Below are positions 4,781 to 56,665 of a DNA stretch of 64,000 nt, one piece after another. The DNA comes from Bacteroidales bacterium (GTDB lineage Bacteria; Bacteroidota; Bacteroidia; Bacteroidales; VadinHA17). Numbering within the stretch: the first letter of the stretch is position 1; each line of letters opens with the position of its first letter. The stretch spans positions 1,317 through 65,316 of the forward strand of contig JAXDBV010000045.1 in NCBI GenBank assembly GCA_034678415.1, in the 5' to 3' direction. A program made the position numbers and the translations under genes. The notes under the pieces were generated by a model that had not been told where the DNA came from, did no database searches, and saw only the letters and a program-made list of their open reading frames with translations.

Positions 4781-4781
4781 A

Positions 4782-9735: not shown

Positions 9736-9740
9736 GGATA

Positions 9741-10916: not shown

Positions 10917-10998
10917 GAAATGTGTATATTACAGGCAGGATCTGCCGGCTCAAATTTATAGTGAACGGGTCAAATTACCTAATCCGGCGTGGACGGTA

Positions 10999-41186: not shown

Positions 41187-41706
41187 AAGACTTACCCGGG
41201 ATTTTTACTCCAGGGATGTACTCGAAGTGACTCCTGATCTGCTGGGTAAATGGCTTGTCCGCCGGTTTGATGACGGTACGGTCAGAAGATATATCATCAG
41301 CGAAGCGGAGGCATACAGGGGAGGAGAAGATAAGGCATGCCATGCAAGCCGGGGATACACGGAAAGAACCAGGGTGATGTTTGGTGAGGGAGGGCATGTA
41401 TACGTATACCTGATCTACGGGATGTACTGGATGTTTAATATTGTAACCGGTCCAAAGGGTTTGCCGCAGGCATCACTGGTCAGGGCTGTACTGAATATTG
41501 ACGGACCCGGAAAGCTAACCCGTGAACTATGTATCGACCGGTCGTTCTACGGTGAAAACCTTGTTACATCAAAGAGATTGTGGCTGGAAGATAATCCTGT
41601 GAAACCGTCCATCAGAAGCGCACCAAGGATCGGTGTGGATTATGCCGGGGAATACTGGAAAAATATACATTGGAGATATATTATTGAAAGCAATGATCAT
41701 CAATAG
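41170..41706 (+). CDS. mpg: DNA-3-methyladenine glycosylase (Mpg/AAG family)
   Basis: 178 aa. FYSRDVLEVTPDLLGKWLV, EAEAYRGGEDKACHASRG, VYLIYGMYWMFNIV and PRIGVDYAG match the AAG/MPG fold family. Confidence 0.85.
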   Translation: MGTVHKRLTRDFYSRDVLEVTPDLLGKWLVRRFDDGTVRRYIISEAEAYRGGEDKACHASRGYTERTRVMFGEGGHVYVYLIYGMYWMFNIVTGPKGLPQASLVRAVLNIDGPGKLTRELCIDRSFYGENLVTSKRLWLEDNPVKPSIRSAPRIGVDYAGEYWKNIHWRYIIESNDHQ

Positions 41707-42838: not shown

Positions 42839-42911
42839 ATATGACGGAAGAGTTTTTTAGTGAATAATTGCTTTATTTGTTAGCTTCACCGTTCTTGAAT
42901 TGCTGGTATTT

Positions 42912-45900
42912 ATGAAACGATTTGCTTTATTGAACAATCTGACCGGATGGACAGCCTTCCTGGTGGCGGCAGTTACCTATTTCCTGACCCTTGAGCCAAC
43001 CGTGAGCTTCTGGGATTGCGGGGAGTTTATTGCTGCATCCTATAAGCTGGAAGTGGGACATCCTCCGGGAGCACCCCTGTTTCTTATGCTGGGACGGTTC
43101 TTCTCACTGTTCGCTTCCGATCCTTCACGGGTGGCTGTCATGATCAATTCTTTATCGGCCATCGCCAGTGCTTTTACCATCCTGTTCCTGTTCTGGACCA
43201 TCACCCATATTGCCCGGAAAATCATTATTGGGAATGATGAGGTTACCAGCGGCCGGATCATGGCGGTTCTCGGCGCCGGTCTCACAGGTGCAATGGCTTA
43301 TACCTTCTCAGATACATTCTGGTTTTCAGCGGTGGAAGGGGAAGTTTATGCCCTGTCATCCCTGTTTACTGCCGTTGTGTTCTGGGCAATTCTTAAATGG
43401 GAGGAACACTCCGATGATCCCCAATCAAACAGGTGGATCATCCTGATTGCTTACCTTATGGGCCTTTCCATCGGTGTTCACCTGTTGAACCTGCTTGCCA
43501 TACCGGCCATCGTCATGGTTTATTATTTCAGGAAATACAAACCTTCCACCTGGGGCGTTATTGTTGCCCTGGTTATTGGCTTGCTTATTCTTGGATTCAT
43601 CCAGTGGGGAATGATACCCGGTGTGGTGAAAATGGCCACTTGGTTCGAACTGTTTTTTGTTAATATCCTCGGGTTACCCTTTCATTCCGGCGCCATTATT
43701 TATGTTCTCGGCCTCATCGCTCTGCTTGGCTGGCTGCTGTATCACACTCATTTGAATAACAAGGTGCTGCTGAATACGGTTGTCCTTTGCTTTTCGGTGA
43801 TGTTGATTGGTTATTCATCCTATACCATGATCATCATCAGGTCATCGGCTAATCCGCCGATGGACCAGAACAATCCCGATAATGTATTCGATCTTTTAAA
43901 ATACCTGAACCGTGAGCAATACCAAGCCTCCCCGCTGATCAAGGGTCCGTATTATAATGCCCCGGTTATTGATGTGAAGGACGGGAAGCCGAAATATATC
44001 AGGAGAAACGGTAAATATGTGGTAATCGACAGGGATCCGGTATATAAGTATGATCCGCGGTTTGTCACATTCTTTCCCCGTATGTACAGCAGTACGGAAG
44101 ATCAGCATGTGAGTGACTACATCGAATGGGGAAAGATCAAAGGGGTGAAAATTCCGGTGAGCGGTTCACGCTCTCAGACGGAAATGAGGGTAAAACCGAC
44201 ATTTTCAGAGAACCTCCGTTTCTTTATACGGTACCAATTGGGTCATATGTATTTCAGGTATTTTATGTGGAATTTTGCCGGGAGGCAGAATGATATTCAG
44301 GGCCATGGCAACGTGCTTGATGGGAACTGGATCTGCGGCATTCCGGCCATCGATAATCCACGGTTGGGTCCGCAGGAGAACCTGCCCGACAAATACCTCA
44401 ACAACCGGGGCAGGAACAGGTACTACATGCTGCCTCTGTTGTTAGGACTGGCGGGTCTGTTGTACCTTTTCAGGAAAGGCCGTAATAACTTCTGGGTTAC
44501 TGGCTTGCTCTTTGTCTTCACGGGAATAGCCATTGTGGTTTACCTGAACCAGACTCCTCATCAGCCCCGGGAAAGAGATTATGCATACGCGGCTTCATTT
44601 TACGTGTTCTCTATATGGATAGGCCTGGGAACGCTTTTATTGTATCAATTCTTCAGGAAATATTTCACCGATATCGGGGGAGCACTGACAAGTGCAATCC
44701 TTTGCCTGGCAGTACCTGCTCAAATGGCATCGGAAAACTTGGATGATCACAACCGGTCGGGTCGGTATACGGCCAGGGACTTTGCATACAACTATCTGAA
44801 CTCCTGTGAACAACAGGCTGTGATCTTCACCAACGGGGATAATGATACATTTCCTCTCTGGTACATACAGGAGGTGGAAGGTGAACGAACCGATGTGAGG
44901 GTAACCAACTGCAGTTACCTGGGTGCTGCCTGGTATATCAGCCAGATGAAGATGAAAGCATACGAGTCTGAGCCTCTTCCTTTCTCCCTGAAAGAGGAAC
45001 AGTACGTTCAGGGTTCCAGGGATGTGTTGCTTTTCAATCCGCGGTTTGATGATTATTATGATATAAAGCAGGTGATGGAATTTGTGTCCAGTGATGATCC
45101 CAGGGCGAAAATCAGGTCCCCGTTTGGCAGAAACGAAACGATGAATTACATGCCCACCCGGAAGCTGAGGATACCGGTGGATTTGGCAACCGTTCTGAAT
45201 AACGGGACGCTTGACAAGGAAGATGCTCAAAGGATGCTCAAGCATATAGACTGGGAGATTACCAGGGACGTAATCTACAAGAATGATCTGATGATTATTG
45301 ATCTTATGTCCACCAATGAATGGAAAAGACCTGTCTATTTTGCCATCACTGTCCCCCGTGAGGTATATCTTCAGCTCGATCCTTTCTTTCAGTGTGAAGG
45401 CTTTGCCTACAGGGTTGTGCCGCTGAGGACCGAACCGCGGGAAACGGATATTGGAAGAATTCCTTCCGCCAAACTCTATGACCGGATAATGAATAAGTTC
45501 CGTTGGGGTAATGTGAACGATCAGAAGGTGTACATTGATGAGAATAACCAGCGGATGATCTCCAGTACCAGGAATATTTTTGCACGGCTTGCATTGCAGC
45601 TGGTAGAGGAAGAAAAGAAGGATTCAGCGCTGACGGTACTTGACCGGTGTATGGAACTGTTTCCCGGCGACAGAATCCCCCATAATTTCTTTTCTCTTCA
45701 GCTTATAACGGCTTACTACCGCGCCGGAGATTATGAAAAGGCTGACTCCCTGGCGCGCGTCATCGCCGACGATCATGAAAAACTGGCCCGGTATATTTTT
45801 GCCCTTGACAGGAAACGAATGAGCACTGTGGTGAATGAAGCCCAGCTCGCCATGTATGTTTTTAACCAGGTAGTACATATTACGGGCCAGTATGCAGGGA

Positions 45901-45968
45901 AGGAAGTAAGGGAAGAGATGTACCGGCGTTTCCAGGACCTTATGGCCATATATAACACATTGAGCTGA
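42912..45968 (+). CDS. DUF2723 domain protein (TMEM260 / GT117-like, GT-C-type putative glycosyltransferase) with a large C-terminal periplasmic helical-repeat region
   Basis: The N-terminus (LTGWTAFLVAAVTYFLTLEPTVSFWDCGEFIAASYKLEVGHPPGAPLFLMLGR) is the hallmark DUF2723 start. About 10+ TM segments in the first 620 aa are followed by about 400 aa of soluble sequence. The ATG is at 42912; the track uses TTG at 42900. Confidence 0.8.
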   Translation: MKRFALLNNLTGWTAFLVAAVTYFLTLEPTVSFWDCGEFIAASYKLEVGHPPGAPLFLMLGRFFSLFASDPSRVAVMINSLSAIASAFTILFLFWTITHIARKIIIGNDEVTSGRIMAVLGAGLTGAMAYTFSDTFWFSAVEGEVYALSSLFTAVVFWAILKWEEHSDDPQSNRWIILIAYLMGLSIGVHLLNLLAIPAIVMVYYFRKYKPSTWGVIVALVIGLLILGFIQWGMIPGVVKMATWFELFFVNILGLPFHSGAIIYVLGLIALLGWLLYHTHLNNKVLLNTVVLCFSVMLIGYSSYTMIIIRSSANPPMDQNNPDNVFDLLKYLNREQYQASPLIKGPYYNAPVIDVKDGKPKYIRRNGKYVVIDRDPVYKYDPRFVTFFPRMYSSTEDQHVSDYIEWGKIKGVKIPVSGSRSQTEMRVKPTFSENLRFFIRYQLGHMYFRYFMWNFAGRQNDIQGHGNVLDGNWICGIPAIDNPRLGPQENLPDKYLNNRGRNRYYMLPLLLGLAGLLYLFRKGRNNFWVTGLLFVFTGIAIVVYLNQTPHQPRERDYAYAASFYVFSIWIGLGTLLLYQFFRKYFTDIGGALTSAILCLAVPAQMASENLDDHNRSGRYTARDFAYNYLNSCEQQAVIFTNGDNDTFPLWYIQEVEGERTDVRVTNCSYLGAAWYISQMKMKAYESEPLPFSLKEEQYVQGSRDVLLFNPRFDDYYDIKQVMEFVSSDDPRAKIRSPFGRNETMNYMPTRKLRIPVDLATVLNNGTLDKEDAQRMLKHIDWEITRDVIYKNDLMIIDLMSTNEWKRPVYFAITVPREVYLQLDPFFQCEGFAYRVVPLRTEPRETDIGRIPSAKLYDRIMNKFRWGNVNDQKVYIDENNQRMISSTRNIFARLALQLVEEEKKDSALTVLDRCMELFPGDRIPHNFFSLQLITAYYRAGDYEKADSLARVIADDHEKLARYIFALDRKRMSTVVNEAQLAMYVFNQVVHITGQYAGKEVREEMYRRFQDLMAIYNTLS

Positions 45969-46609
45969 TGCGTTTCTACCAGTCGCCTTCCAGCCCCTTT
46001 CGACAACTTCTCCCTGAACTGGTATGGTGCCTGCCGGGGATGGACAGGAAAATACTTCTCACGTTTGATGACGGTCCTGATCCTGTAAGTACACCAGTCA
46101 TACTGGATATCCTGGCAGAAAAGAATGCCAGTGCGATTTTCTTCTGCCTGGGAAGGAATGTGGAAAGATACCCCCTCTTGTATGATCGGATCGTGTCCGA
46201 AGGTCATACTGCCGGGAATCATACTTATAGCCACCTCGATGGTTGGCGAACCGGCGTTGATGAATATCTCAGAGATGTGGAACAGGCCGGCCGGTTCATC
46301 GTATCAGACTTGTTCCGGCCTCCCTTTGGCAGGATCAGGCCCTCACAAATACGGAGGCTGAAATCGAAGTTCAGAATCATGATGTGGAGTTGGATGTTTC
46401 TTGATTTCAGTGGTGTGGAGAGAACAGGGAACCAAAGGATACCGCACGAAAAATACCTGTACCCGGGTAGTATTCTTGTATTTCATGACTCACAGAAAGC
46501 AGCTCCCATCACCCGTTTTTTATTAAAGGACTTACTGGAACAGATAGACAGATACCATTTAAAGGCAGGATTACCTGTTTGGTCGATACCCCATGAAAAT
46601 TGTTGTTAA
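45968..46609 (+). CDS. Polysaccharide deacetylase family protein (NodB homology domain, CE4)
   Basis: LLTFDDGPDP (the Asp-Asp metal/catalytic motif), GNHTYSH (His-His) and FRPPFG. The start overlaps the upstream stop (TGATG). Confidence 0.8.
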   Translation: MRFYQSPSSPFRQLLPELVWCLPGMDRKILLTFDDGPDPVSTPVILDILAEKNASAIFFCLGRNVERYPLLYDRIVSEGHTAGNHTYSHLDGWRTGVDEYLRDVEQAGRFIVSDLFRPPFGRIRPSQIRRLKSKFRIMMWSWMFLDFSGVERTGNQRIPHEKYLYPGSILVFHDSQKAAPITRFLLKDLLEQIDRYHLKAGLPVWSIPHENCC

Positions 46610-47723
46610 TGCGGTTACAGTGAAATATGGAGGCGGATTAACCGTTTCCCTCAATTTCCTCAGGGCTGCGGCAATTACTCTTGGAGAAGATGAACTGTTC
46701 CTGATCACTGCCCGGGGGACAGGAATGGAGGGTTACACTGTTGGCGGAAACGTAACTGTCGTCCCTGCATGGAAGATGAAATATCTTTTCAGACCCTGGC
46801 TTGACCATGTGTATTTACGGAGAATTATCAGGACGATCAATCCGGATGTCATCATAAGCATGGGTAATCTTCCGTTGCCCGTTAAGGGATGCCAGGTCAT
46901 CCTCTTTGATAATCCCTTCGGTACCCTGAGGTCATTCAATGATTTCCGGCTCACCCACCTTGATAAGCTCAGGCACAGGTTGAGGAATTATTTCTTCGCC
47001 AAACGAATAAAATACCTAAATAGTATCATTTTCCAGACAGAGATTGAGCAGCGTAAATTTCAGGAGAAATATGCCCGGGTGAAGGTCCGGCAGTGGATAA
47101 TACCGAATCCTCCCGGCCTCCTTCCTCAGGCTGTTACCCCTGCTTCCAGCCTGCGAATGAAGAAGGAAGAAGGTGAACGGTTTGTGGTAGCCTTTACGCG
47201 CTACTATCCGCATAAGAACCTCGAAATCCTTCTGCACGTGGCTGAATTGATCAGGGACAGATACCGGATCAAAATATTGCTGACGATACAACCCGGGCAA
47301 CATCCGCACGCTGCAAGAATGTTACGCCTGATCAGGAAGAGAGGGTTAGAGAATGTAATAATAAATACCGGCGAGATTGCTCCGGTCCAGATCAGTCACC
47401 TGTACAGGCTTTCTGATGCCCTCGTGTTGCCTACGCTTCTCGAATCGTTTACCTCCACTTATACCGATGCCATGTTGCATGGTGTCCCTGTTCTGACTTC
47501 CGACCGGGATTTTGCACGGCACATTTGTGGAGACGCGGCATGGTACTTCAATCCGGCGGATCCTCATGATATCCTGAAAACCATTTGCTGCTGCTTTGAA
47601 AACCAGCAAGAGAGGCAAAAGAAGATTGAACGGGGATTGGAGATGATTCGTACAAGATACCCCGACTGGTTTTCATGTGCCCGGCAATTACTTGATCTGG
47701 CATCGATAAATAACCAGGAATGA
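46593..47723 (+). CDS. Glycosyltransferase family 4-like (GT-B)
   Basis: C-terminal LPTLLESFTSTYTDAMLHGVPVLTSD (E-x7-E-like region) and a YPHKNLEILL linker. It overlaps the deacetylase end by 17 nt. Confidence 0.75.
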   Translation: MKIVVNAVTVKYGGGLTVSLNFLRAAAITLGEDELFLITARGTGMEGYTVGGNVTVVPAWKMKYLFRPWLDHVYLRRIIRTINPDVIISMGNLPLPVKGCQVILFDNPFGTLRSFNDFRLTHLDKLRHRLRNYFFAKRIKYLNSIIFQTEIEQRKFQEKYARVKVRQWIIPNPPGLLPQAVTPASSLRMKKEEGERFVVAFTRYYPHKNLEILLHVAELIRDRYRIKILLTIQPGQHPHAARMLRLIRKRGLENVIINTGEIAPVQISHLYRLSDALVLPTLLESFTSTYTDAMLHGVPVLTSDRDFARHICGDAAWYFNPADPHDILKTICCCFENQQERQKKIERGLEMIRTRYPDWFSCARQLLDLASINNQE

Positions 47724-48526
47724 TGGGCATGGTTAGCATTATACTACCGGTATATAACGGAGCTTCATATCTTGAGAATGCCATCGTTTCGGTCTTGAAT
47801 CAAACATACAGGAACTTTGAACTGATCATCATTGATGATGCGTCAACCGACCACAGCCTGCAGATTGTGGAATATTACAGGAGACAGGACACACGGATCC
47901 TGGCGATAAGAAGCAGTATGAGAAGGGGAGTGGCGAAAACCCTGAATATTGGCCTGCGTGCTGCCGGCGGCGATTTCATTGCCAGGATCGATGCGGATGA
48001 CCTGTGGTTGCCTGAAAAACTGGAACAGCAGGTAAGGGTATTCAATTCGGATCCTGAACTGCTCCTGTTAGGAACTGCTAAAATTCTCATCGATCAAAAC
48101 GGGGATGTAATATTCGGAAAAAGCGACTGGCCAGTGTATTCCTATGGTGACATACGGAAAAATATCCTGAAGAAAAACCTCTTTTCCCATTCATCGGTGA
48201 TGTTCAGGAAGTCCGTCCTCACCGTGGCAGGATATTACAATGAGGATTACAAAAATTCGGAGGATTACGAGTACTGGATCAGGATCATTACCCAAGGAAA
48301 AGCAGAGATTATTCGGGAATCGCTGGTACAGTACCGTCTTCATCCCGAGATGATTTCATGGAAGAAAAGACGGCAACAAAAATTATTTGTGATTAAAGCC
48401 AAATGGATGGGGTTCTCACTTCTCGGGTTCAGGCCCGGTTACATGCCATACCTTGCAAGGGATGTATATGAGTGGATGGTACCGGATTTTATGATCAGAC
48501 TGAAGCGGAAACTGATAGGTGTTTGA
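47720..48526 (+). CDS. Glycosyltransferase family 2
   Basis: VSIILPVYNGASYLENAIVSVLNQTYRNFELIIIDDASTD and ARIDADDLW (DxD). It overlaps the upstream stop (ATGA). Confidence 0.85.
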   Translation: MMGMVSIILPVYNGASYLENAIVSVLNQTYRNFELIIIDDASTDHSLQIVEYYRRQDTRILAIRSSMRRGVAKTLNIGLRAAGGDFIARIDADDLWLPEKLEQQVRVFNSDPELLLLGTAKILIDQNGDVIFGKSDWPVYSYGDIRKNILKKNLFSHSSVMFRKSVLTVAGYYNEDYKNSEDYEYWIRIITQGKAEIIRESLVQYRLHPEMISWKKRRQQKLFVIKAKWMGFSLLGFRPGYMPYLARDVYEWMVPDFMIRLKRKLIGV

Positions 48527-48532
48527 AAAAGG

Positions 48533-49450
48533 TTAATATCTGTCCCGCCCGAGAAATATCCTGCCTTTCCAGTATTGTTCAACGAGAAATATTGTCACCG
48601 GATATGAGGTTGTATGCGAAGGTTCATAAAGTAAATATTGCATTAACGCGGAACAGTGTTTTTCAATAAGAACAATTTCTGACTGTTTCAATTTCTTTTT
48701 CCATGCACTCACCGTTGAATGATCCGCAGGGCCGGTAATATCCCTGTGCAATTCAATCTCCGGTGGGGGTAGCCGGTCATAGTAGTTGCCGGTATCATTT
48801 CGTTCCCCAGGTGTGTACCCGATCTGCAGGTGCTGAAGAAGATCATCCACTGTTTTTTCGGGATTTACCACCAGATCCTCAAACCGTACCGTTTCAACCC
48901 TGCAGTAACCGGGATTCCTATGGACGGCCTGATTTGCCAGTTGTTTCCAGGTGTACGCGCAGATAAGAGGATTCTTATTAAAGGCTCTCCCCGTGTAGGG
49001 GTTTACGGTGCATTTCTGTGATGCAAATATTCCCCGAGGATCCCTGATGAGATTTAAAAATATGATCTTGTCAGCATAATCTGAAAGCTGATTCGACAGC
49101 TTGAACAGGGAGGTATGTTTGAACACGATGGTATCAGCCATGGAATTGATTTGGTTCCGGTAAAGGGTGAGCACATGCAACAACATTCCTTCACGGCTTT
49201 TCTGATCCATAGCCTCATTAATGTCATCAGGAGTAAGTTTCCAGTATTTCAACTGCATGTCTTGCCGGATGGCTTTCATCAACCTGTCTTTTATCGACCC
49301 GGTATTTTTCCCGTTGATCAGGATATCAACGAGGCAACCGGCTTCAGGGCATACCGCGAAGGTATTGATTCTGCTGAGATGTTGCAGGAGGAAGCTTGAT
49401 CCTGACCGGTTCATATAAGAAACGAACACAAATTTCATTTGCCGATCCAT
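48533..49450 (-). CDS. Sulfotransferase family protein (RSGS-type PAPS loop)
   Basis: N-terminal FVFVSYMNRSGSSFLLQHL (5'-phosphosulfate-binding loop analogue) and LIRDPRGIFASQ (R-D-P-x-D/G..S 3'-phosphate motif). The start overlaps the upstream stop (TAATG). Its stop is only 6 nt from the convergent GT2 stop. Confidence 0.7.
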   Translation of the reverse strand: MDRQMKFVFVSYMNRSGSSFLLQHLSRINTFAVCPEAGCLVDILINGKNTGSIKDRLMKAIRQDMQLKYWKLTPDDINEAMDQKSREGMLLHVLTLYRNQINSMADTIVFKHTSLFKLSNQLSDYADKIIFLNLIRDPRGIFASQKCTVNPYTGRAFNKNPLICAYTWKQLANQAVHRNPGYCRVETVRFEDLVVNPEKTVDDLLQHLQIGYTPGERNDTGNYYDRLPPPEIELHRDITGPADHSTVSAWKKKLKQSEIVLIEKHCSALMQYLLYEPSHTTSYPVTIFLVEQYWKGRIFLGRDRY

Positions 49451-50349
49451 TACATTGGATATCCATGATCTGCCAGAGGTAATCCGGGAAGCATCCTGCT
49501 AAGCGTTTTATTTGATTCACGGTAATAATCCTCGATAAAACGGAAACTCCTCCACCCAAGAACCTCCCGTGAAGAAGGATGGCTTCCCATGATGGACAGG
49601 CGGTTCAAATTCTGTAAAAGTAAGGTTCTTACCTGGTACCAGCCGGGGATGTGGACGACATAATACTTGAAGGCATATTTTTCCCTGGTGAATATATTCA
49701 TAAACCGGGCCAGGGGAAACAATGCTTTTCTCAGCCTCGGATTCTCAGGCTGGTAGTTGAGTGTATCGAGGTTTATTTTCAGGTCAAAGATGCGGCAGTA
49801 TTCCTTCAGGAATGATGTATTGTCAGCAGCGAATTGTTCGAAAAGGAATACATGGACATGTGCGGCTCCAAACAGGTTCTGATACAGGGCTACCACTTTA
49901 TCGTATTCAAAGAGGATGAAGTCATTGGTAACGTTTTTATACGGTGTTTTCTGTCTGAACAGGTACCGGTCGGGGGAGTGGGTGCCTCCTGCCAGGATAT
50001 GCTGTGAATACCGTGAGGCCATTATATCTGCCTGGTTCCTGATGATTACAACAATATCTGCCTGCGGGAACACAGCATTAATCCTGCGGGCATTCTCGGC
50101 AATTCTTATACCATTGTTTCGCCGGTCAACGAGTATCTCCTCCTCACAAATCAATATGCGTCCGTAACAATGATCAGTAAAATATTCTGAAACGGCAGCC
50201 GGATTGAAACTGAACGCATCTTTCCGGAGAATCTGTCCCAGCACTTCGTCCCTGCCAATAAAACAGGCATCCGTCACCAGCGGATAGAATTTTTTCTGAA
50301 ACCAGGTGGTGGATGTCTTCGGATAACCTATATGGATCAGGGGATTCAT
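49450..50349 (-). CDS. Predicted sulfotransferase, paralog 1 of 3
   Basis: IHIGYPKTSTTWFQ (compare the canonical PKxGTTW PAPS loop), VVIIRNQADIMASRYSQ, IPGWY and YYRESNKTL. It aligns full-length by eye with 50346-51269 and 52169-53089. Confidence 0.65.
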   Translation of the reverse strand: MNPLIHIGYPKTSTTWFQKKFYPLVTDACFIGRDEVLGQILRKDAFSFNPAAVSEYFTDHCYGRILICEEEILVDRRNNGIRIAENARRINAVFPQADIVVIIRNQADIMASRYSQHILAGGTHSPDRYLFRQKTPYKNVTNDFILFEYDKVVALYQNLFGAAHVHVFLFEQFAADNTSFLKEYCRIFDLKINLDTLNYQPENPRLRKALFPLARFMNIFTREKYAFKYYVVHIPGWYQVRTLLLQNLNRLSIMGSHPSSREVLGWRSFRFIEDYYRESNKTLSRMLPGLPLADHGYPM

Positions 50350-51269
50350 GAGTGTAGCGTAATGTAATATCCTTCAAATCCCGGGGGAATATACCCCTCC
50401 TCTGCAAGTCGTACATTGGATGAGGAATAATACCGGGCTATCTGGGCCACCAGTGGTTCACCCAAAAGTTCACAGGAACCGGGTTTTTTCCGGAACAGCT
50501 TGGTGTTATTCAGCTTCTCGGTGACAAGCCGCGTAAAGCCATACCACTTGGGTATGTTAAGAAAATATCTTTTACAGGGGATATTTTTCCTCGTAAAGTG
50601 GTTTGCCCACCTGTGACAGTTCAGTAAATACCTGTTCAGCCGGGCATTTACCTTCCGTGGTGAGTGAACAGAAGAATACAATTCAATACCGAGCCGGTCA
50701 AGAAAATACATTATGAATCGTTCCGAGTACTGTATCAGGTCTTCATAAAGAAATACCGATACGTTTTCCCTGCCGAACAGTTCTTCATACATATGGATGG
50801 TGTGATGAAAGTCAAACAGTTCAAAATTAAATGATCTTTCCTTGAATCGGGCATCGGTAGTAGCAGTACTAAAGTACTGTCGGGGATAATAAGTCCCACC
50901 TGATTTTACATATTCGGAATACAGTGATGCCAGCAGGTCGATCTGGTACCTGATGAAAATGACGATGCGGCTTCCCGGTAACGACTGATGCAGCCTCATA
51001 GCCAGCTGTTGTGCATGCCTTCCTCTGCTTTCCCATTTCACCACATTTCCCAGCAGGTCTTCATGGCTGATGATGACTTTTTCACCGTATTGTTCCGAAA
51101 GGTGATTGACAAATCCCTCAGCATCAAATTCATGGTCATCCGGCCGGATCAGCCCGGTAAGAATCTGATTCCTGGACACCATTTTATATCCTGCGACGAG
51201 CGGGAAAATACAGGTTTGCAACCAGCTGGTACCTGTTTTAGGGTAGCCGATATGAACGATAGCTTTCAT
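50346..51269 (-). CDS. Predicted sulfotransferase, paralog 2 of 3
   Basis: VHIGYPKTGTSWLQ, VIFIRYQIDLLASLYSE, IPKWY and YYSSSNVRL. The start is set at MKAIV (51269), overlapping the GT8-like stop (TAATG); its stop overlaps the next start (ATGA). Confidence 0.65.
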   Translation of the reverse strand: MKAIVHIGYPKTGTSWLQTCIFPLVAGYKMVSRNQILTGLIRPDDHEFDAEGFVNHLSEQYGEKVIISHEDLLGNVVKWESRGRHAQQLAMRLHQSLPGSRIVIFIRYQIDLLASLYSEYVKSGGTYYPRQYFSTATTDARFKERSFNFELFDFHHTIHMYEELFGRENVSVFLYEDLIQYSERFIMYFLDRLGIELYSSVHSPRKVNARLNRYLLNCHRWANHFTRKNIPCKRYFLNIPKWYGFTRLVTEKLNNTKLFRKKPGSCELLGEPLVAQIARYYSSSNVRLAEEGYIPPGFEGYYITLHS

Positions 51270-52141
51270 TATTCTCTCAGTAGTTTGCTCCACCACCGGC
51301 GGCTGGAGAACCAGCCAAATATATCAGGATTCCCATCAAATAATACCGTCAGTGCCTTTCGCATGTGCTTATTTTTTCCCAGGAACCGTGGGTGGTGATA
51401 GTGAACAAGTACCGGAATATCATTCAACTTTTTTCGCAGGTGCAGAGGATAATTATATGTCTCATCCAACAGCCTGTAAGGTATACCGGTTTTCAGTAAG
51501 GCCAGGGAGAGACTTACCTGGTCGAAATGGAAGGCATACTTCCTGTCGCCGTGCATTAAAAGCTCCCTGTACAATGAAATCCAGGTATTTAAAAAATGCC
51601 GCAGCATATGTTTCCTGAAGATCAATACCCCGGAGTTAAAATACGGGGGAGACCATTTACCGTCGTATGTACAGGTAATGCTGTTTTCCGGTTTGTCCAG
51701 GTGAAATCGGGTGCATATCTCCTCCCAGTTCAATCCGATGGTCACATCGGCCGGTTTTGCCCACAGGCTGGTGTTATCCTTTTCCGTGAATGGGAACAGA
51801 ACAGGACGACAGCACAGGATATCGCTGTCAAGAAATACAACGTTCTCCTGCCCGGCAAGCGGTACCAAACAAAACAACTTGTTGCTTACCAAAAGGTTCC
51901 TTTCATAATGGTTGGACTCAATAAGAAGGGGATTGTCAAAATAAACGGGATGAATGCCAAGGTTATTAAAAATGGATACTGCTTCAGCGGATATATTCCA
52001 TGGACGGTTGTTTATTACTGGAACCGCATAGTAAACGGATACCCCTTCCGGAAGATATTTCATTAACGACATTCCAAGAACAAGAGAATAAGATTCAATA
52101 TCCCCCGGGTGTGACACAAATATGAATGAGTAAGCGTTCAT
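51269..52141 (-). CDS. GT8-like nucleotide-diphospho-sugar transferase (GT-A fold)
   Basis: VVFLDSDILCCRP (DxD) and PYFNSGVLIF resemble the glycogenin/LPS-glycosyltransferase (GT8) motifs. 290 aa with no TM segment. Confidence 0.55.
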   Translation of the reverse strand: MNAYSFIFVSHPGDIESYSLVLGMSLMKYLPEGVSVYYAVPVINNRPWNISAEAVSIFNNLGIHPVYFDNPLLIESNHYERNLLVSNKLFCLVPLAGQENVVFLDSDILCCRPVLFPFTEKDNTSLWAKPADVTIGLNWEEICTRFHLDKPENSITCTYDGKWSPPYFNSGVLIFRKHMLRHFLNTWISLYRELLMHGDRKYAFHFDQVSLSLALLKTGIPYRLLDETYNYPLHLRKKLNDIPVLVHYHHPRFLGKNKHMRKALTVLFDGNPDIFGWFSSRRWWSKLLRE

Positions 52142-52168
52142 CGAATGATTCGTTTACATACCCAAATA

Positions 52169-53089
52169 TTACATCGGATAACCCAGCTCTGCAAGTTTTT
52201 CTGAGGGAAGAAGCCTTTGAAGGGACGCATTGGATTCCCGATAAAAGTTCCTGATGTATTCCACATTTTTCACCCCCAGTATATGTGCTGATGACGGATA
52301 CCTGCCGAAAACCTTCCATGCATTCATTCTTTTGTACAGTCTCCTGGTTGTGCTGTACCATCCCGGTATACTGATGCAATAGTATTTATAAAGAGTTCTT
52401 TCGTGCGTGAAAATGTTTAACAGCCTGACCATCCTGAGAAGGCCGGCCCGGTACCGTTTATTTTTGGGACTGAAATCGATGGCTTCCTGAAGTATCTCAA
52501 GATCAAATGTTTCAATGAATGACCGGATAAATTTCTGCGGATTGCTTTGTAGCTTTTCATAGGGAAAAACATGTACGTTTTCTTCTCCAAACAAAGAATG
52601 GTAATAAGTGATCAGTTTGTCAAACTCAAGGTAATGGAATGAAAACAGCAGGCTCTTGTTTGCTTGATGAAACAGGAATTTATTTATTCCATAGGTCCCG
52701 CCGTTCTGTACATAATTGAAATAGGCTGAAGCAATCAGGTCGGTCTGGTTCCGGGTAAAAATGATAATGCGGGCTTCAGGGAACACATCATGTAGCCGCT
52801 GCCCCAACTCTGTTGTCATGACACCGTTATGCCCGCCGAGATTCATGAATCCCAGTAAGTTTTCCTGGCTGATAATTAAGGGCTTCTTATACCTGGTCAG
52901 AAAATAGTTTCTTACCTTTTCCGCATCAAAATGAAAGGCATGAGGACGGATGATCCACTGAAAGATCTCTTCAGTACTCGCAACATCCATGTTTCTCACC
53001 AGAGGAAAGACATTTTCCTGCAACCAGGTGGATGCCGCCTTCGGGAAACCAATATGTATGAATACCTTATTCATGAATGATGTTATCAA
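52169..53089 (-). CDS. Predicted sulfotransferase, paralog 3 of 3 (first gene of the operon)
   Basis: IHIGFPKAASTWLQ, IIIFTRNQTDLIASAYFN, IPGWY and FYRESNASL, with the C-terminus LAELGYPM (compare LADHGYPM in paralog 1). An alternative start is at M6 (53074). Confidence 0.65.
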   Translation of the reverse strand: MITSFMNKVFIHIGFPKAASTWLQENVFPLVRNMDVASTEEIFQWIIRPHAFHFDAEKVRNYFLTRYKKPLIISQENLLGFMNLGGHNGVMTTELGQRLHDVFPEARIIIFTRNQTDLIASAYFNYVQNGGTYGINKFLFHQANKSLLFSFHYLEFDKLITYYHSLFGEENVHVFPYEKLQSNPQKFIRSFIETFDLEILQEAIDFSPKNKRYRAGLLRMVRLLNIFTHERTLYKYYCISIPGWYSTTRRLYKRMNAWKVFGRYPSSAHILGVKNVEYIRNFYRESNASLQRLLPSEKLAELGYPM

Positions 53090-53266
53090 ATTTATCGATA
53101 AAAAAGAGATTTACGTATGAGGATACTTTTTATTTCTGACGGCGGATGATAAGCCGGAGCGTAATTTTTCTTACTTTTACATTCAGTAGACTCAATATAA
53201 ATAAGATAGCAACAAATCCGGACGATTTGCGTAAAATATATTTATACCCAATAAACTTCCCTGATA

Positions 53267-56200
53267 ATGAAAAATGCGAAAATACTGTTTCTTGCATTTC
53301 TTGCAACACTGGCCGGTACACTCCGGTCGCTTCCCCAGGATTGCTGGGAATGTTTGTCACAGATAAGTTCTACTGCGAATATGGCCGCAAATGCAGGCGC
53401 CTTTTCCGAGTTGGATAACAACGGGAACCTTTATATTTTCAGCGATTACACCGGTCCCATCACCATCAGGTCCAGGACTATCCCCTATGGTGGCAACACG
53501 GATATTGTATTGATGAAAATGAATGCTGAGACTTGCGATACGCTCTGGATCAGGGTGGTGAATGGTGTGAATAAGGAAGCAGCCCGGGATATGAAGCTCG
53601 ATGATGATGGAAACATATATATTACTGGCGGGTTTACCGTATCGGCCAACTTCAACGGGACTGTGATCACCTCCCCCGACGGAACGGAAGATATCTTTCT
53701 TGCCAAGTATAATCCTGAAGGGAACCTGATATTTGCCAGAAATGTCGGATATGGTGCGGGAATACAGAGGTCTTCCGCTATGATCGTGGATGAGCAGGAC
53801 AGTATTGCAATGCTTGGTATTTATAACACTCAAATTACCTTTTCCACCGGAAAGTCATTCACCGGTGATGCTGCCTTCGATAACTTCTTTGCTAAATTCA
53901 GCATTACGGATGGTAACCATGGATCCATTAAGAACTGGAATGGCACAGACGGGGCTACACGGTTAAATTCCATTGATGTTGCCTGTACCGATGGTTACTA
54001 TATCGGCGGAACCTTTTACGGAACCCTGACTCCCCCGTGCAATAGTGATGTAACCAGTACCAACCAGGGAGACATATTGTTGTCCAAAGTTGACAAAGAC
54101 GGGTGTGTGGTGCCGGGATGGATCTATACTTATGGTTCCACCGGACCGGTAAATTATCATGATGTTCTGTCCTCACTGTCCTCTGATGGAGACTGCAATA
54201 TATACTATACCGGCTCTTTCTTCAGAACACTGAACATGGATGGCAGTATCATACAGGCTGATGGAGGGAATCAGGATATTTATGTGGCGAAAAAAAATGC
54301 TGCTGGAACCCTCCAGTGGGTCAAACGTTTTGGAAGCGGCTCATGGGACGAAGGATTATGCATTTCAACGAATGATGCTATTATTGGAGTGGGAGGATTT
54401 TTCAGAGGTGACCTGGTCTGGGGCCGTGACACCGTTACCTCAGAAGAACCGGCAGATGATGACAGCTTTGTCGGAATAATCACTCCTGACGGCAAACCCT
54501 TCGCGATTTATAATCCGCACGGCAGGTTATCAAGAACACTGGATGTGGCCATTGACGCTTACCATAATTTCTTTGCCACCGGTACATTTCGAGGAACAAA
54601 AATAGACTTCGGTTGTGACATGTCGCTGACAAAAACTCCTCCCCGGGCGGATAATTTACGTGACCTGTGGATTGCACGGCATGGACCCGTGATAAGCCTT
54701 GAATTCCTTGTGGACAGTATAACATGTTATGGTGGCAATGACGGAGCCATCGACATGACCGTGATCGGGAATCTCGAACCTTATACCTACCTGTGGGAGA
54801 TCGTTAGCGGTGGCTGCGGCATAGCCAATCCCAATGCGGAAGACCTCTCTGGCCTGTGTGCCGGTATCTATAAGATCACGGTTGGCTACAGTGGCGGCCT
54901 GAAGACGGATACGGTACTGGTGCCCGGACCACCGCAATTCATCATCGACAGTGCAAAAGTTACGCAACAAGTCACGCAGTGTTATGGTGACTGCAGCGGT
55001 GAGATCAGGGTGTATGCCCGCGGCGGTACCGGTACATTAAAGTATACTCTCCAGCCCGGGAACATTGTCAATACCACCGGTATATTTAGCAACCTTTGTG
55101 CGGATACCTATACGGTGACTGTGTCAGATTATCATAATTGCAGCCTGACAAGTCAGGAACTTACTGTTATACAACCACCCTCACTGGTGTTGTTGCTCGA
55201 CATTAAAACGGATATTACCTGTTATGGACTCAATAACGGGCGAATAGAGATGAACGGTTCGGGCGGTACAGGCCCTTTGCAGTTTACTCTTAATCCCGGC
55301 AATGTGACTAATGATGACGGGATCTTTACCGGTCTGGCTCCGGGCTCATATACAATTTGTCTGACCGATGCCAATACCTGCGGGCCTGTTTGTGTTGGTC
55401 CTATCGATATTCTGGAGCCGGATAGCCTTCAGATTGTCAGTGTTACTCAAACCCATCTTCTTTGCCATGGCGGAGCAAATGGCGAGATCTGTGTGACGGC
55501 TCAGGGTGGGAAGGGCACATTGTCGTACACACTGACACCGGGCAATATAACGAATACTACCGGTTGCTTTACCGGCCTGGTTGCAGGTACCTACTGTGTG
55601 ACCGTAGATGATGCCAACAGTTGCGGGCCAGTGGATACCTGTGATATCGTTCTGTTACAGCCAGAAATGGTTAGCTTCACCAAAACACAGACTGACGCTA
55701 CCTGCTTTGATGTATGTGACGGATCCATTACTGTGTCCGCCACCGGGGGGAACGGCGAGTACGAATATTCCAGGGATGGGGGCTCCACCTGGCAGATATC
55801 CAATGTCTTTTCTGATCTTTGCGACAACAGTTATACCATCCGGGTGAAAGACAGTTATGGATGCTTATCCCCTGATTCCGTCGTTCAGATTACTCAACCA
55901 TCCATGGTATCGTTCACGTATGAGAAAACCGATATCAGCTGTGCAGGAGAGCATGACGCATCGGTTACTATAACCGCCTCAGGAGGAAACGGTACATACC
56001 TCTATTCCATTAATTGTGGATCCTCCTGGCAGGATTTGCCTGTGTTTCCGGGTCTGGCCCCTGGTACATACTGCCTTCTGGTTAAGGACTGGAGGGAATG
56101 CCATTCCGACCCCGTGAATATGGAGATTGTTGCACCGGAACCGCTCACCATCGCTGATATTGATTCAACAGGCATAACATGCGAAGGACAAGTGAACGGT

Positions 56201-56653: not shown

Positions 56654-56665
56654 AATTTCTGAGCG

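What the first reader, a model, noticed from the sequence alone, without database searches (positions are those of the whole stretch)
48533..53089. Translationally coupled five-gene operon with four predicted sulfotransferases (three are full-length paralogs) plus a GT8-like transferase
Seen in the sequence:
- ORFs 49450-50349, 50346-51269 and 52169-53089 align with each other end to end. They share (I/V)HIG(Y/F)PK-x-x-(S/T)(S/T)W(L/F)Q near the N-terminus, hydrophobic-R-x-Q-x-D-x-x-AS-x-Y in the middle, and IP(G/K)WY and YY(R/S)(E/S)SN near the C-terminus.
- The first motif closely resembles the PKxGTTW 5'-phosphosulfate loop of PAPS-dependent sulfotransferases. The second resembles their R-x-x-x-D...S 3'-phosphate motif.
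- A fourth ORF (48533-49450) carries the other common bacterial sulfotransferase version (NRSGSSFL, IRDPRGIFASQ).
- A GT8-like gene (LDSDIL, YFNSGVLIF) sits between paralogs 3 and 2.
- Junctions are TAATG, ATGA and TAATG overlaps, so the genes are almost certainly co-translated.

Inference: the operon builds and multiply sulfates one glycan or glycolipid acceptor, with the paralogs targeting different positions or residues. Bacterial carbohydrate sulfation is documented in only a handful of systems (rhizobial Nod factors, mycobacterial sulfoglycolipids, some cyanobacterial and marine exopolysaccharides). As far as I know, a dedicated four-sulfotransferase cassette in a Bacteroidota envelope locus is not a described system.
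Basis: partly seen in the sequence, partly recalled or inferred. Interest (0 to 1): 0.68.

Follow-up and report, generated by a model that had tools for sequence, protein, structure and literature searches.

The report
Four-sulfotransferase glycan-decoration operon in Bacteroidales
An uncultured Bacteroidales bacterium has a tightly packed five-gene operon of four soluble sulfate-adding enzymes plus one sugar-adding enzyme, which most likely builds a heavily sulfated cell-surface glycan, something this phylum is known for degrading rather than making.

Summary
Five back-to-back minus-strand genes (53074..48533) encode three ~300-aa paralogous sulfotransferases (30-38% identical), a fourth unrelated Sulfotransfer_3 enzyme and a GT8-like retaining GT-A glycosyltransferase. 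Three of the four junctions overlap (TAATG, ATGA, TAATG); the first is a 27-nt gap.

Pfam, a PDB profile search and an AlphaFold model all place the paralogs in the PAPS-dependent sulfotransferase fold. The nearest characterised structures are heparan-sulfate 3-OST and NDST. All family-invariant residues are kept in all three paralogs. None of the five proteins has a hydrophobic segment, so sulfation should happen in the cytoplasm.

The cassette is not unique and the family is not rare. At least 2,489 50%-identity clusters match at E<=1e-30. About two dozen Bacteroidales MAGs carry arrays of 1-4 such genes at the same chromosomal spot, a variable islet between a conserved TMEM260-like GT-C/CE4 deacetylase core and a SprB-like T9SS adhesin gene.

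In other phyla the family sits inside Wzx-type glycan clusters. In one planctomycete the GT8-like domain is fused to a sulfotransferase.

No member has been characterised. PAPS supply, the acceptor and the product's destination remain untested. Verdict: real, moderately interesting, a new variant of a known kind.

The parts
52169..53074 (-). ST-A, first gene of the operon. It is a 301-aa soluble sulfotransferase of the HIGYPKTATTW subfamily. The ORF extends to TTG 53089, but ATG 53074 is the likely start.
   Evidence: Pfam Sulfotransfer_3 36.9 bits and Sulfotransfer_1 28.6 bits, both above cut-off. The public gene call is 301 aa. All family-invariant residues are present. No hydrophobic segment.
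51269..52141 (-). GT8-like retaining GT-A glycosyltransferase, 290 aa, starting 27 nt after the ST-A stop.
   Evidence: Pfam GT8 scores only 18.2 bits against a 24.3 cut-off. Family-invariant residues include DxD (D105, D107), YFNSGV, DQ and HYHH. AF2 model pLDDT 87. Foldseek top hits are alpha3GalT, BoGT6a, LARGE1, UGGT, glycogenin and XXYLT1.
50346..51269 (-). ST-B, a 307-aa paralogous sulfotransferase. Its start overlaps the GT8-like stop (TAATG).
   Evidence: Pfam Sulfotransfer_1 20.6 bits, just under the 22-bit cut-off. It aligns end to end with ST-A and ST-C and keeps all invariant residues.
49450..50349 (-). ST-C, a 299-aa paralogous sulfotransferase. Its start overlaps the ST-B stop (ATGA).
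   Evidence: Pfam Sulfotransfer_3 27.6 bits and Sulfotransfer_1 25.1 bits. AF2 model pLDDT 89, pTM 0.86. All significant Foldseek PDB hits are PAPS sulfotransferases.
48533..49450 (-). ST-D, 305 aa, from a different sulfotransferase lineage with a TPST-type RSGxS phosphosulfate loop. Its start overlaps the ST-C stop (TAATG).
   Evidence: Pfam Sulfotransfer_3 44.4 bits over almost the full profile. The weak best PDB sequence hits are tyrosylprotein sulfotransferase 1, with IRDPRGIFAS aligned to VRDGRASVHS. No detectable relation to the A/B/C profile.
53087..53094 (-). Candidate Bacteroidetes-type -7 promoter box TAAATTTG, 12 nt upstream of the ST-A ATG. It contains the TTG at 53089.
   Evidence: Pattern match. 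The motif is not enriched in the window overall (38 found, 39 expected), so this is only a candidate. The consensus TAnnTTTG comes from my own knowledge.
46593..48526 (+). GT4 (46593-47723) and EpsE/TuaG-like GT2 (47720-48526). They are the plus-strand half of the variable islet. The GT2 stop lies 6 nt from the ST-D stop (convergent).
   Evidence: Pfam and NCBIfam. A convergent GT2 abuts or overlaps the last ST gene in L001, L005, L018, L024, L025, L069 and L090.
42900..46609 (+). Conserved core: TMEM260-like (DUF2723) GT-C membrane glycosyltransferase (42900-45968) and a CE4 polysaccharide deacetylase with no hydrophobic segment (45968-46609).
   Evidence: Pfam. The two are adjacent in every sampled relative, including loci without an ST array.
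39597..42838 (+). Conserved upstream genes: Wzy_C (O-antigen ligase/polymerase-like, 39597-41186), methylpurine DNA glycosylase (41170-41706) and an LpxZ-family-like lipid A deacylase (41633-42838).
   Evidence: Pfam. NCBIfam LpxZ_fam at E 7.7e-50, below its cut-off. Synteny in L088, L089, L091 and L093.
53267..57556 (+). Divergently transcribed SprB-repeat protein with a type B T9SS sorting domain (53267-56653) and its PorP/SprF partner (56666-57556). Together they form the other border of the islet.
   Evidence: Pfam SprB, CHU_C and PorP_SprF. TIGR04131 and TIGR03519. A SprB-like gene flanks the ST arrays in most Bacteroidales loci.

Best explanation
The five genes form one operon of cytoplasmic glycan-tailoring enzymes: four PAPS-dependent sulfotransferases and one retaining, nucleotide-sugar-dependent GT-A glycosyltransferase.

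Proposed mechanism:
- Together with the convergent GT2 and GT4, they assemble an oligosaccharide on a lipid carrier (most likely undecaprenyl phosphate) at the inner face of the cytoplasmic membrane.
- The GT8-like enzyme adds an alpha-linked hexose.
- The three ancient paralogs and the unrelated ST-D each transfer sulfate from PAPS to a different position. The unit would carry up to four sulfates before it is flipped and delivered to the cell surface.

The operon is the strain-variable part of a chromosomal islet. That islet lies in an uncultured Bacteroidales lineage between a conserved TMEM260-like GT-C/CE4 deacetylase core and a SprB-like T9SS adhesin gene.

Shown here: fold, cofactor motifs, solubility, operon packing, recurrence and copy-number variation of the array, and association of the family with glycan-assembly genes in several phyla.

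Inferred: PAPS use, glycan acceptor, lipid carrier, distinct regiospecificities and a surface destination.
For: Sulfotransferase identity:
- Pfam hits.
- The family profile against PDB gives 3rnl at 1.8e-17, then SULTs. The family RNQxDxxxS motif is aligned to the RNPRDxxxS 3'-phosphate motif of SULT2A8, and PKtatTW to PKSGTHW.
- AF2 model pLDDT 89. All 23 Foldseek hits at E<=1e-3 are sulfotransferases. The highest TM-scores (up to 0.58-0.66) are to heparan-sulfate 3-OST-1/3/5; NDST1 ranks second by E-value (query-normalised TM 0.50-0.55).
- ST-A, ST-B and ST-C each keep H6, K11, E70, R104, Q106, G122, Y156 and E171.
- ST-D: Sulfotransfer_3 at 44 bits, with TPST-like motifs.

Glycosyltransferase identity:
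- Invariant DxD and the GT8-type YFNSGV, DQ and HYHH motifs.
- Retaining GT-A fold.

Cytoplasmic location: no 19-residue window with Kyte-Doolittle mean >=1.6 in any of the five proteins, nor in GT2, GT4 or CE4. The phosphosulfate loop starts within 10 residues of the N-terminus.

Operon: overlaps read from the sequence. Promoter-like and terminator-like sites in the scanned 48300-53400 region do not exceed the shuffle expectation.

Glycan context:
- GT2, GT4, CE4, GT-C and Wzy_C are neighbours.
- In Thalassobacillus cyri the family member lies between a WecA/MraY-type initiating transferase and a Wzx flippase. UDP-glucose dehydrogenase, a WecG/TagA transferase, a GT4 and a second Sulfotransfer_3 gene are in the same cluster.
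- In Arhodomonas it lies next to a Wzx-like gene and LptF/G.
- In a planctomycete the GT8-like domain is fused to a Sulfotransfer_3 domain and sits next to a family member.
- GT8-like genes adjoin ST genes in L003, L011 and L052.

Distinct roles of the paralogs: they are deep branches, with position-specific clades shared across genomes. Conservation is concentrated in the cofactor motifs and lowest in residues 21-60 and 181-200.

Precedent: in synechan, two STs in the cluster match two sulfates per repeat (PMC8205485).
Against: - No member of the A/B/C family has a known substrate. The closest solved structure (3rnl) is itself uncharacterised.
- No PAPS-synthesis gene lies in the 64-kb window or in the related loci listed with Pfam annotation. 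The rest of the genome could not be examined.
- The islet has no flippase, initiating phosphoglycosyltransferase, polymerase co-factor or exporter of its own. The nearest Wzx is 45 kb away in a separate polysaccharide locus.
- Sphingomonas daechungensis (L008), the one single-copy proteobacterial neighbourhood I scanned besides Arhodomonas, shows no obvious glycan genes nearby.
- At the same chromosomal spot two relatives carry a lasso-peptide-like cluster with its own sulfotransferase. So sulfation of non-glycan acceptors occurs in this islet type.
- The catalytic base is not identified. E70 and H6 are only candidates.
Confidence: 0.6

Rival explanations
1. The sulfated glycan is a protein O-glycan rather than LPS or capsule. 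It would be built on a lipid carrier, flipped, and transferred to surface proteins such as the adjacent SprB-like T9SS adhesin, possibly by the conserved TMEM260-like GT-C enzyme.
For: - A TMEM260-like GT-C with a C-terminal non-membrane domain lies 2.6 kb from the islet. Human TMEM260 is a protein O-mannosyltransferase that acts on Ig-like IPT domains (PMC10214176).
- A SprB-like gene borders the ST arrays in most Bacteroidales loci, including rearranged ones (L024, L025, L069).
- From my own knowledge, Bacteroidota have a general O-glycosylation system.
Against: - The same order rpsI-rplM / Wzy_C / MPG / LpxZ-like / TMEM260-like / CE4 ... SprB-like / purD includes housekeeping genes. The adjacency may simply be inherited gene order.
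- TMEM260-like plus CE4 occur without any ST or SprB gene in L092.
- PMT-type GT-C enzymes transfer single sugars from polyprenyl-phosphate donors, not preassembled sulfated oligosaccharides (established knowledge of the family).
Confidence: 0.12
2. At least one of the enzymes is an N-sulfotransferase working on glucosamine unmasked by the neighbouring cytoplasmic CE4 deacetylase. This would be a split bacterial counterpart of animal NDST, giving a heparan-like N-sulfated glycan.
For: - The NDST1 sulfotransferase domain is among the top structural matches.
- A NodB-like CE4 deacetylase without a hydrophobic segment is a fixed neighbour.
- Mostly N-sulfated exopolymers have been reported from a bacterium (Pontiella, PMC7356697).
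Against: - Structural similarity to 3-O-sulfotransferases is equally good.
- CE4 is conserved even where the islet holds a lasso-peptide cluster or nothing, so it is not specifically tied to the ST genes.
- No residue-level evidence separates N- from O-sulfation.
Confidence: 0.1
3. The sulfotransferases act on a non-carbohydrate acceptor, such as a membrane lipid, a small metabolite or a peptide. The glycosyltransferase neighbours would then be coincidental.
For: - Two relatives carry a sulfotransferase inside a lasso-peptide-like cluster at the same locus.
- ST-D's nearest PDB sequences are tyrosylprotein sulfotransferases, though only at E about 0.1.
- Gut Bacteroidota sulfotransferases that act on small molecules are known (abstract of PMC13449962).
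- The Sphingomonas daechungensis copy (L008) has no glycan-gene neighbours.
Against: - No precursor peptide, RRE, cyclase or lipid-synthesis gene lies in the window islet.
- A glycosyltransferase is embedded in the operon with overlapping stop and start codons and is fused to a sulfotransferase in another phylum.
- The family sits inside Wzx-type clusters in a Firmicute and a gammaproteobacterium.
- The best structural matches are carbohydrate sulfotransferases.
Confidence: 0.13
4. One or more of the paralogs are catalytically dead duplicates that act as scaffolds or substrate-presenting subunits. The product would then carry fewer than four sulfates.
For: ST-B is the most divergent, falls just under the Pfam cut-off and sits on a long branch.
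Against: All three paralogs retain every invariant and near-invariant residue of the family, including the phosphosulfate-loop Lys and the 3'-phosphate Arg/Ser.
Confidence: 0.05

Closest known systems
Synechan (xss) sulfated exopolysaccharide cluster of Synechocystis PCC 6803 (PMC8205485)
   Same: - Cytoplasmic Pfam-type sulfotransferases are encoded among glycosyltransferases of a glycan cluster.
- The number of STs (two) matches the number of sulfates per repeat unit.
- The STs belong to distinct subfamilies.
   Different: - Here there are four STs in a five-gene operon.
- The islet has no Wzx, Wzy, PCP or OPX genes.
- The A/B/C proteins belong to an uncharacterised subfamily.
- The host is an uncultured Bacteroidales bacterium and no product is known.
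Heparan-sulfate 3-O-sulfotransferases and the NDST sulfotransferase domain (animal Golgi enzymes)
   Same: - They are the best characterised structural matches to the ST-C model (TM about 0.55-0.66).
- They share the P-loop-like phosphosulfate loop and the Arg/Ser 3'-phosphate motif.
- A conserved acidic residue (E70) could play the role of their catalytic Glu. This last point is inference.
   Different: - Sequence identity is only 12-15%.
- The animal enzymes are lumenal type II membrane proteins acting on a finished polymer. These proteins are soluble and cytoplasmic.
PDB 3RNL, sulfotransferase from Alicyclobacillus acidocaldarius
   Same: Closest solved relative by both sequence profile (1.8e-17) and Foldseek.
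   Different: The match covers only the central third of the protein in the sequence search. The depositor's molecule name is simply 'Sulfotransferase', so it says nothing about substrate.
Rhizobial NodH/LpsS and mycobacterial Stf0 carbohydrate sulfotransferases (from my own knowledge; named in PMC8205485 as Nod factor and mycobacterial examples)
   Same: Bacterial, cytoplasmic, PAPS-dependent sulfation of a sugar on a lipid-linked or glycolipid acceptor.
   Different: Those are single enzymes per pathway with known substrates. No sequence relationship to them was tested here.
Tyrosylprotein sulfotransferases (TPST1/2), compared with ST-D only
   Same: An RSGxS/T phosphosulfate loop with Arg instead of Lys, and an (I/V)RDxR...S 3'-phosphate motif. 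Same Pfam family, Sulfotransfer_3.
   Different: The PDB sequence matches are not significant (E about 0.1). No peptide substrate gene is nearby.
GT8 / GT6 / GT24 retaining GT-A glycosyltransferases (LgtC-type, glycogenin, LARGE1 xylosyltransferase domain, BoGT6a, UGGT)
   Same: GT-A fold, a DxD motif, and YFNSGV, DQ and H-x-H-type motifs in GT8 order.
   Different: It falls below the Pfam GT8 gathering score. Its own family is small and unannotated. Donor and acceptor are unknown.

Membership tests
PAPS-dependent sulfotransferase superfamily (ST-A, ST-B, ST-C) | 5'-phosphosulfate-binding loop (PKxGTT-like) at the end of the first beta strand | tested here: met
   HIG(Y/F)PK(T/A)x(S/T)(S/T)W is present in all three. 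K11 is kept in 27 of 29 family members and is Arg in the other 2. In the model, strand 4-7 is followed by helix 14-24.
PAPS-dependent sulfotransferase superfamily (ST-A, ST-B, ST-C) | 3'-phosphate-binding motif (Arg ... Ser on strand/helix after the central strand) | tested here: met
   R104 is invariant. The family motif iRnQpdiiaSaY aligns with IRNPRDVLVSGY of SULT2A8 (7d1x).
PAPS-dependent sulfotransferase superfamily (ST-A, ST-B, ST-C) | Sulfotransferase alpha/beta fold | tested here: met
   AF2 pLDDT 89.1, pTM 0.86. All Foldseek PDB hits at E<=1e-3 are sulfotransferases.
PAPS-dependent sulfotransferase superfamily (ST-A, ST-B, ST-C) | Curated Pfam score threshold | tested here: inconclusive
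   ST-A and ST-C pass Sulfotransfer_3 and Sulfotransfer_1. ST-B scores 20.6 against a cut-off of 22.
PAPS-dependent sulfotransferase superfamily (ST-A, ST-B, ST-C) | Catalytic base (His in cytosolic SULTs, Glu in heparan-sulfate enzymes) positioned next to the acceptor hydroxyl | tested here: inconclusive
   E70 (28 of 29) at the end of strand 64-69 and the invariant H6 are candidates. No residue-level superposition could be made.
PAPS-dependent sulfotransferase superfamily (all four) | Binding of PAPS and sulfuryl transfer | not testable with these tools
   This needs biochemistry or ligand docking.
PAPS-dependent sulfotransferase superfamily (all four) | A PAPS supply in the same organism (ATP sulfurylase plus APS kinase) | not testable with these tools
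   Absent from the 64-kb window. The source contig is only 66.5 kb and the rest of the genome could not be fetched.
Sulfotransfer_3 (PF13469), for ST-D | Pfam gathering score and full-length profile match | tested here: met
   44.4 bits against a cut-off of 27. Protein residues 8-213 match profile positions 2-215 of 216.
CAZy/Pfam GT8 | Pfam Glyco_transf_8 gathering score | tested here: not met
   18.2 bits against a cut-off of 24.3. It is therefore filed as GT8-like, not GT8.
Retaining GT-A glycosyltransferases | GT-A Rossmann-like fold with a DxD metal/nucleotide-sugar motif | tested here: met
   D105 and D107 are invariant in 14 homologs. AF2 pLDDT 87. 399 Foldseek hits at E<=1e-3, led by GT6, GT8 and GT24 retaining enzymes.
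Wzx/Wzy-dependent sulfated polysaccharide cluster (synechan type) | Sulfotransferase and glycosyltransferase genes in one cluster | tested here: met
   Four STs, the GT8-like gene, GT2 and GT4 lie within 6.5 kb.
Wzx/Wzy-dependent sulfated polysaccharide cluster (synechan type) | Flippase, polymerase, co-polymerase, exporter and initiating transferase in the same cluster | tested here: not met
   None lies in the islet. A Wzy_C-domain gene lies 7 kb upstream in the conserved core. The only Wzx lies at 1209-2726 in another locus. No PF00953 or PF02397 hit appeared among the window proteins scanned.

The most novel reading that the evidence does not exclude
The ST/GT islet, the conserved TMEM260-like GT-C plus cytoplasmic CE4 deacetylase core and the adjacent SprB-like T9SS adhesin would form one system. 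It would make a poly-sulfated, possibly N-sulfated (heparan-like), glycan and attach it to a surface adhesin or to the outer membrane of uncultured sediment Bacteroidales. This would be a bacterial glycosaminoglycan-like or sulfated protein-glycosylation pathway in a phylum regarded as a consumer of sulfated glycans. It would also give the first function for bacterial TMEM260/DUF2723 homologs.
Probability: 0.1. Interest if true: 0.8.

Novelty: new variant of a known kind. Interest (0 to 1): 0.5.

Why it matters
Sulfated glycans shape marine and sediment carbon cycling, metal binding, hydration and host interactions. Bacteroidota are normally treated as their degraders. One mat metagenome survey found no PF13469 sulfotransferase in any Bacteroidetes MAG (PMC9723792).

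This locus shows that a Bacteroidales lineage carries dense, strain-variable arrays of sulfotransferases in a surface-glycan islet. The enzymes belong to a large family (thousands of clusters) that standard annotation often misses. Many members have no precomputed Pfam hit and no name.

The family also occurs in cultured bacteria: Thalassobacillus cyri, Arhodomonas aquaeolei and several Sphingomonas and Sphingobium species. Its chemistry is therefore directly testable. A set of regiospecific soluble bacterial carbohydrate sulfotransferases would also be useful for enzymatic synthesis of sulfated oligosaccharides.

Tried and rejected
- **Apparent rarity.** The word-indexed protein search returned only 26 relatives of ST-C and 15 of the GT8-like protein. 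For the ST family, the exhaustive profile search (2,489 clusters at E<=1e-30) and the genome scan (at least 422 loci) overturned that impression.
- **ST-D as a diverged fourth paralog.** Rejected. hhalign of the A/B/C profile against ST-D gives probability 0.3%. They are related only at Pfam-superfamily level.
- **DUF6625 as a GT8-like relative.** The three tandem DUF6625 genes that occupy the islet in L088 and L089 are not related to the GT8-like protein (hhalign probability 0.2%).
- **Promoter and terminator scans.** The sigma-70 and terminator scans of the operon gave counts at shuffle expectation. The Bacteroidetes -7 motif is not enriched in the window. The promoter call therefore stays tentative.
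- **NCBIfam.** It gave nothing for the five operon proteins.
- **Source assembly.** I tried to identify it in order to look for cysDN/cysC. Only short Logan contigs from SRR24057989, SRR24057994, SRR24058005 and SRR24058006 were returned, and no names or accessions.
- **Literature.** Searches for DUF2723, Bacteroidetes sulfotransferase clusters, SprB glycosylation and a Bacteroidota O-oligosaccharyltransferase found no description of this locus.
- **Recent tandem duplication.** Rejected. The paralogs are 30-38% identical and fall into separate deep clades shared with other genomes.

Full report
**Observation**

The window carries five consecutive minus-strand ORFs:
- ST-A: 53089/53074..52169
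- GT8-like: 52141..51269
- ST-B: 51269..50346
- ST-C: 50349..49450
- ST-D: 49450..48533

Reading the reverse strand gives four junctions. There is a 27-nt spacer between ST-A and the GT8-like gene.

The one exception is that ST-A reads FYRESN rather than YYRESN.

The TTG at 53089 is probably not the start of ST-A. The public gene call for this exact protein is 301 aa, which corresponds to ATG 53074. Homologs also start 3-6 residues before the HIG motif. The TTG lies inside a TAAATTTG match to the Bacteroidetes -7 promoter consensus. That motif is no more frequent in the window than in shuffles, so the promoter call is tentative. Across the scanned operon region, promoter-like and terminator-like sites do not exceed chance.

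**What the proteins are**

Pfam results:

| Protein | Best Pfam hits (bits) | Cut-off status |
|---|---|---|
| ST-A | Sulfotransfer_3 36.9; Sulfotransfer_1 28.6 | above |
| ST-C | Sulfotransfer_3 27.6; Sulfotransfer_1 25.1 | above |
| ST-D | Sulfotransfer_3 44.4, near full length | above |
| ST-B | Sulfotransfer_1 20.6 | just below 22 |
| GT8-like | Glyco_transf_8 18.2 | below 24.3 |

NCBIfam has no model for any of the five.

I aligned ST-A, ST-B and ST-C with 26 homologs.
- Invariant residues are H6, I7, G8, R104, Q106, G122, Y156 and E171.
- Near-invariant residues include K11, W16, Q18, E70 and R89.
- All three window paralogs keep every one of them.

A profile of this alignment finds PDB sulfotransferases only. 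The best is the uncharacterised Alicyclobacillus enzyme 3rnl (1.8e-17). Mammalian SULTs follow, with the family's RNQxDxxxS aligned on their RNPRDxxxS 3'-phosphate motif.

An AlphaFold model of ST-C (pLDDT 89, pTM 0.86) matches sulfotransferases exclusively at E<=1e-3. The highest TM-scores (0.55-0.66) are to heparan-sulfate 3-O-sulfotransferases; the NDST1 sulfotransferase domain ranks second by E-value (query-normalised TM 0.50-0.55).

ST-D is a separate lineage:
- It shows no profile similarity to the A/B/C family.
- It has a TPST-type RSGxS loop and an IRDPR...S motif.

The GT8-like protein has invariant DxD, YFNSGV, DQ and HYHH motifs. Its confident GT-A model (pLDDT 87) matches retaining enzymes of GT6, GT8 and GT24.

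None of the five, nor the neighbouring GT2, GT4 and CE4 proteins, has a hydrophobic segment. I therefore place all of them in the cytoplasm, where PAPS and nucleotide sugars are available.

**How common the family is**

The first, word-indexed search suggested a very rare family (26 hits). That was an artefact of the index.
- The exhaustive profile search finds 2,489 50%-identity clusters at E<=1e-30 and 8,395 at E<=1e-10.
- A scan of one genome per species finds at least 422 loci. These include Bacteroidales MAGs, Sphingomonadaceae, Myxococcota, Gammaproteobacteria, Planctomycetota, Desulfobacterota and a Firmicute.
- Many members have no precomputed Pfam hit and no name. This may explain why surveys miss them.
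- A metagenome contig from PRJEB14051 carries the same cassette at 96-97% protein identity.

**Neighbourhood**

I mapped the window's proteins onto the fetched loci with phmmer. About two dozen Bacteroidales loci carry arrays of 1-4 sulfotransferase genes at one chromosomal position.
- One side is a SprB-repeat T9SS protein, usually followed by purD.
- The other side is GT2/GT4 genes, then a CE4 deacetylase and a TMEM260-like (DUF2723) GT-C protein.
- Upstream of those lie an LpxZ-like lipid A deacylase, a DNA glycosylase, a Wzy_C protein and rplM-rpsI.
- Four-gene arrays (three family members plus an ST-D type) also occur in L018 and L069. Both are as tightly packed as the window's.
- Other loci carry three family members (L001), two plus ST-D (L005, L024, L028, L046), two (L006, L013, L025, L056, L062, L065, L090) or one (L022, L030, L033).
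- GT8-like genes adjoin ST genes in L003, L011 and L052.

An NJ tree puts the Bacteroidota copies in their own clade. Within it are deep subclades that track gene position. The window's paralogs are therefore ancient, consistent with their 30-38% identity.

I also sampled loci by the TMEM260-like protein instead of by the ST. This shows the interval is a variable islet:
- Two close relatives hold two GT4, two other sulfotransferases and three DUF6625 genes.
- One holds GT4, GT2, GT2 and two family members.
- Two hold a lasso-peptide-like cluster with its own Sulfotransfer_1 gene.
- One has only the GT-C/CE4 pair.

The operon's GC content is slightly low (0.445 against 0.468 for the window).

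**Evidence on the acceptor**

Three observations point to a lipid-linked glycan.
1. A glycosyltransferase is embedded in the operon with overlapping stop and start codons, and GT2/GT4 genes converge on it.
2. In a planctomycete a 570-aa ORF fuses the GT8-like domain (27% identity, E 1e-30) to a Sulfotransfer_3 domain with a GFPRSGTSL loop. It lies next to a family member. This fusion argues that the two activities work on one substrate.
3. In Thalassobacillus cyri the family member lies between a WecA/MraY-type initiating transferase and a Wzx flippase. UDP-glucose dehydrogenase, a WecG/TagA transferase, a GT4 and a second Sulfotransfer_3 gene are in the same cluster. In Arhodomonas aquaeolei it lies next to a Wzx-like gene and LptF/G.

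The best structural matches are also carbohydrate sulfotransferases.

Several points count against a firm conclusion:
- The window islet has no flippase, initiating transferase or exporter.
- The Sphingomonas daechungensis copy (L008) has no glycan neighbours.
- Lasso-peptide clusters with a sulfotransferase at the same spot show that this islet type can also encode non-glycan sulfation.

**Mechanism I commit to (confidence about 0.6)**

GT2, GT4 and the GT8-like enzyme build an oligosaccharide on undecaprenyl phosphate at the cytoplasmic face of the membrane. ST-A, ST-B, ST-C and ST-D each add sulfate from PAPS at a different position. The sulfated unit is then flipped and incorporated into a surface glycan by machinery encoded elsewhere.

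Shown: fold, motifs, solubility, operon packing, recurrence and glycan-gene association.

Inferred: PAPS use, carrier, regiospecificity and destination.

The main rivals each hold roughly 0.1:
- The destination is a protein O-glycan, possibly on the SprB-like adhesin via the GT-C enzyme.
- N-sulfation follows CE4 deacetylation.
- The acceptor is not a glycan.

**Comparison with known systems**

The closest system in logic is the synechan xss cluster. There, two sulfotransferases among eight glycosyltransferases match two sulfates per repeat. Its authors noted that sulfotransferases had not been seen in other bacterial EPS clusters (PMC8205485). Later work reports putative or actual sulfated-glycan clusters in Pontiella (PMC7356697) and in Vibrio and Cobetia capsules.

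The window differs in several ways:
- ST density: four of the five genes in the operon.
- An uncharacterised ST subfamily.
- No export genes in the islet.
- Host phylum. A mat survey found no PF13469 sulfotransferase in any Bacteroidetes MAG (PMC9723792).

I found no paper that describes this locus or any bacterial DUF2723 function.

**Verdict**

This is a real, well-formed sulfotransferase-rich glycan-tailoring operon. Its functional inference is reasonable but unproven, and its rarity claim was overstated.

I rate it a new variant of a known kind, with interest 0.5. The most novel reading not excluded is a sulfated, possibly heparan-like, glycan coupled to the TMEM260-like enzyme and the T9SS adhesin. 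I give that a probability of about 0.1.

Noticed in passing
L091:13655-19562 and L093:13684-19558: In two Bacteroidales relatives, a lasso-peptide-like cluster occupies the chromosomal position of the window's GT/ST islet. It comprises NTP_transf_5, an Asn_synthase-type cyclase, an HPr-kinase/ScmC-like protein, a 288-aa Sulfotransfer_1 protein, PqqD, Transglut_core3 and a 50-52-aa ORF. This suggests a possibly sulfated or phosphorylated lasso peptide.
   Followed up: partly
L023:8051-9763 (minus strand), Planctomycetota MAG: A single 570-aa ORF fuses a GT8-like domain (residues 5-287) to a Sulfotransfer_3 domain (residues 332-532). It is divergent from a member of the ST-A/B/C family.
   Followed up: yes
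L088:17843-20710 and L089:17340-20087: The closest relatives by TMEM260-like identity (73% and 61%) carry three tandem DUF6625 paralogs plus two other sulfotransferases in the islet. DUF6625 shows no relation to the GT8-like family.
   Followed up: partly
window 42900-46609: A 1022-aa TMEM260-like (DUF2723) GT-C protein is followed, with overlapping stop and start, by a CE4 deacetylase that has no hydrophobic segment. The pair is conserved in every relative sampled, even where the islet is empty (L092). Its function in bacteria appears undescribed.
   Followed up: partly
window 48526-48533: ST-D and the GT2 gene converge with only 6 nt between their stop codons and no terminator-like hairpin. 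In L001, L005, L018, L024 and L069 the corresponding 3' ends overlap by 6-45 nt.
   Followed up: no
window 41633-42838: A 401-aa protein with one N-terminal hydrophobic segment matches the NCBIfam LpxZ family (E 7.7e-50, below cut-off). In related loci it carries Pfam Lipid_A_deac. It is syntenic with Wzy_C and a methylpurine DNA glycosylase.
   Followed up: no
window 1209-12099: A second, separate polysaccharide locus on the minus strand. It contains a Wzx-type flippase, a methyltransferase, two NAD-dependent epimerase/dehydratase-family enzymes (Epimerase/GDP_Man_Dehyd hits), a nucleotidyltransferase, GT4-type transferases and a UDP-GlcNAc 2-epimerase.
   Followed up: no
window 216-1199 and 56666-57556: Two PorP/SprF-family genes lie in the window. 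The SprB-like protein at 53267-56653 has an N-terminal SBBP beta-propeller-like region in addition to its SprB repeats and type B T9SS sorting domain.
   Followed up: no
window 53087-53094: TAAATTTG, matching the Bacteroidetes -7 promoter consensus, lies 12 nt upstream of the ST-A ATG and contains the TTG that the mechanical ORF list uses as the start. Several other matches in the window also lie 18-34 nt upstream of start codons, for example 13780, 18840 and 34099.
   Followed up: partly
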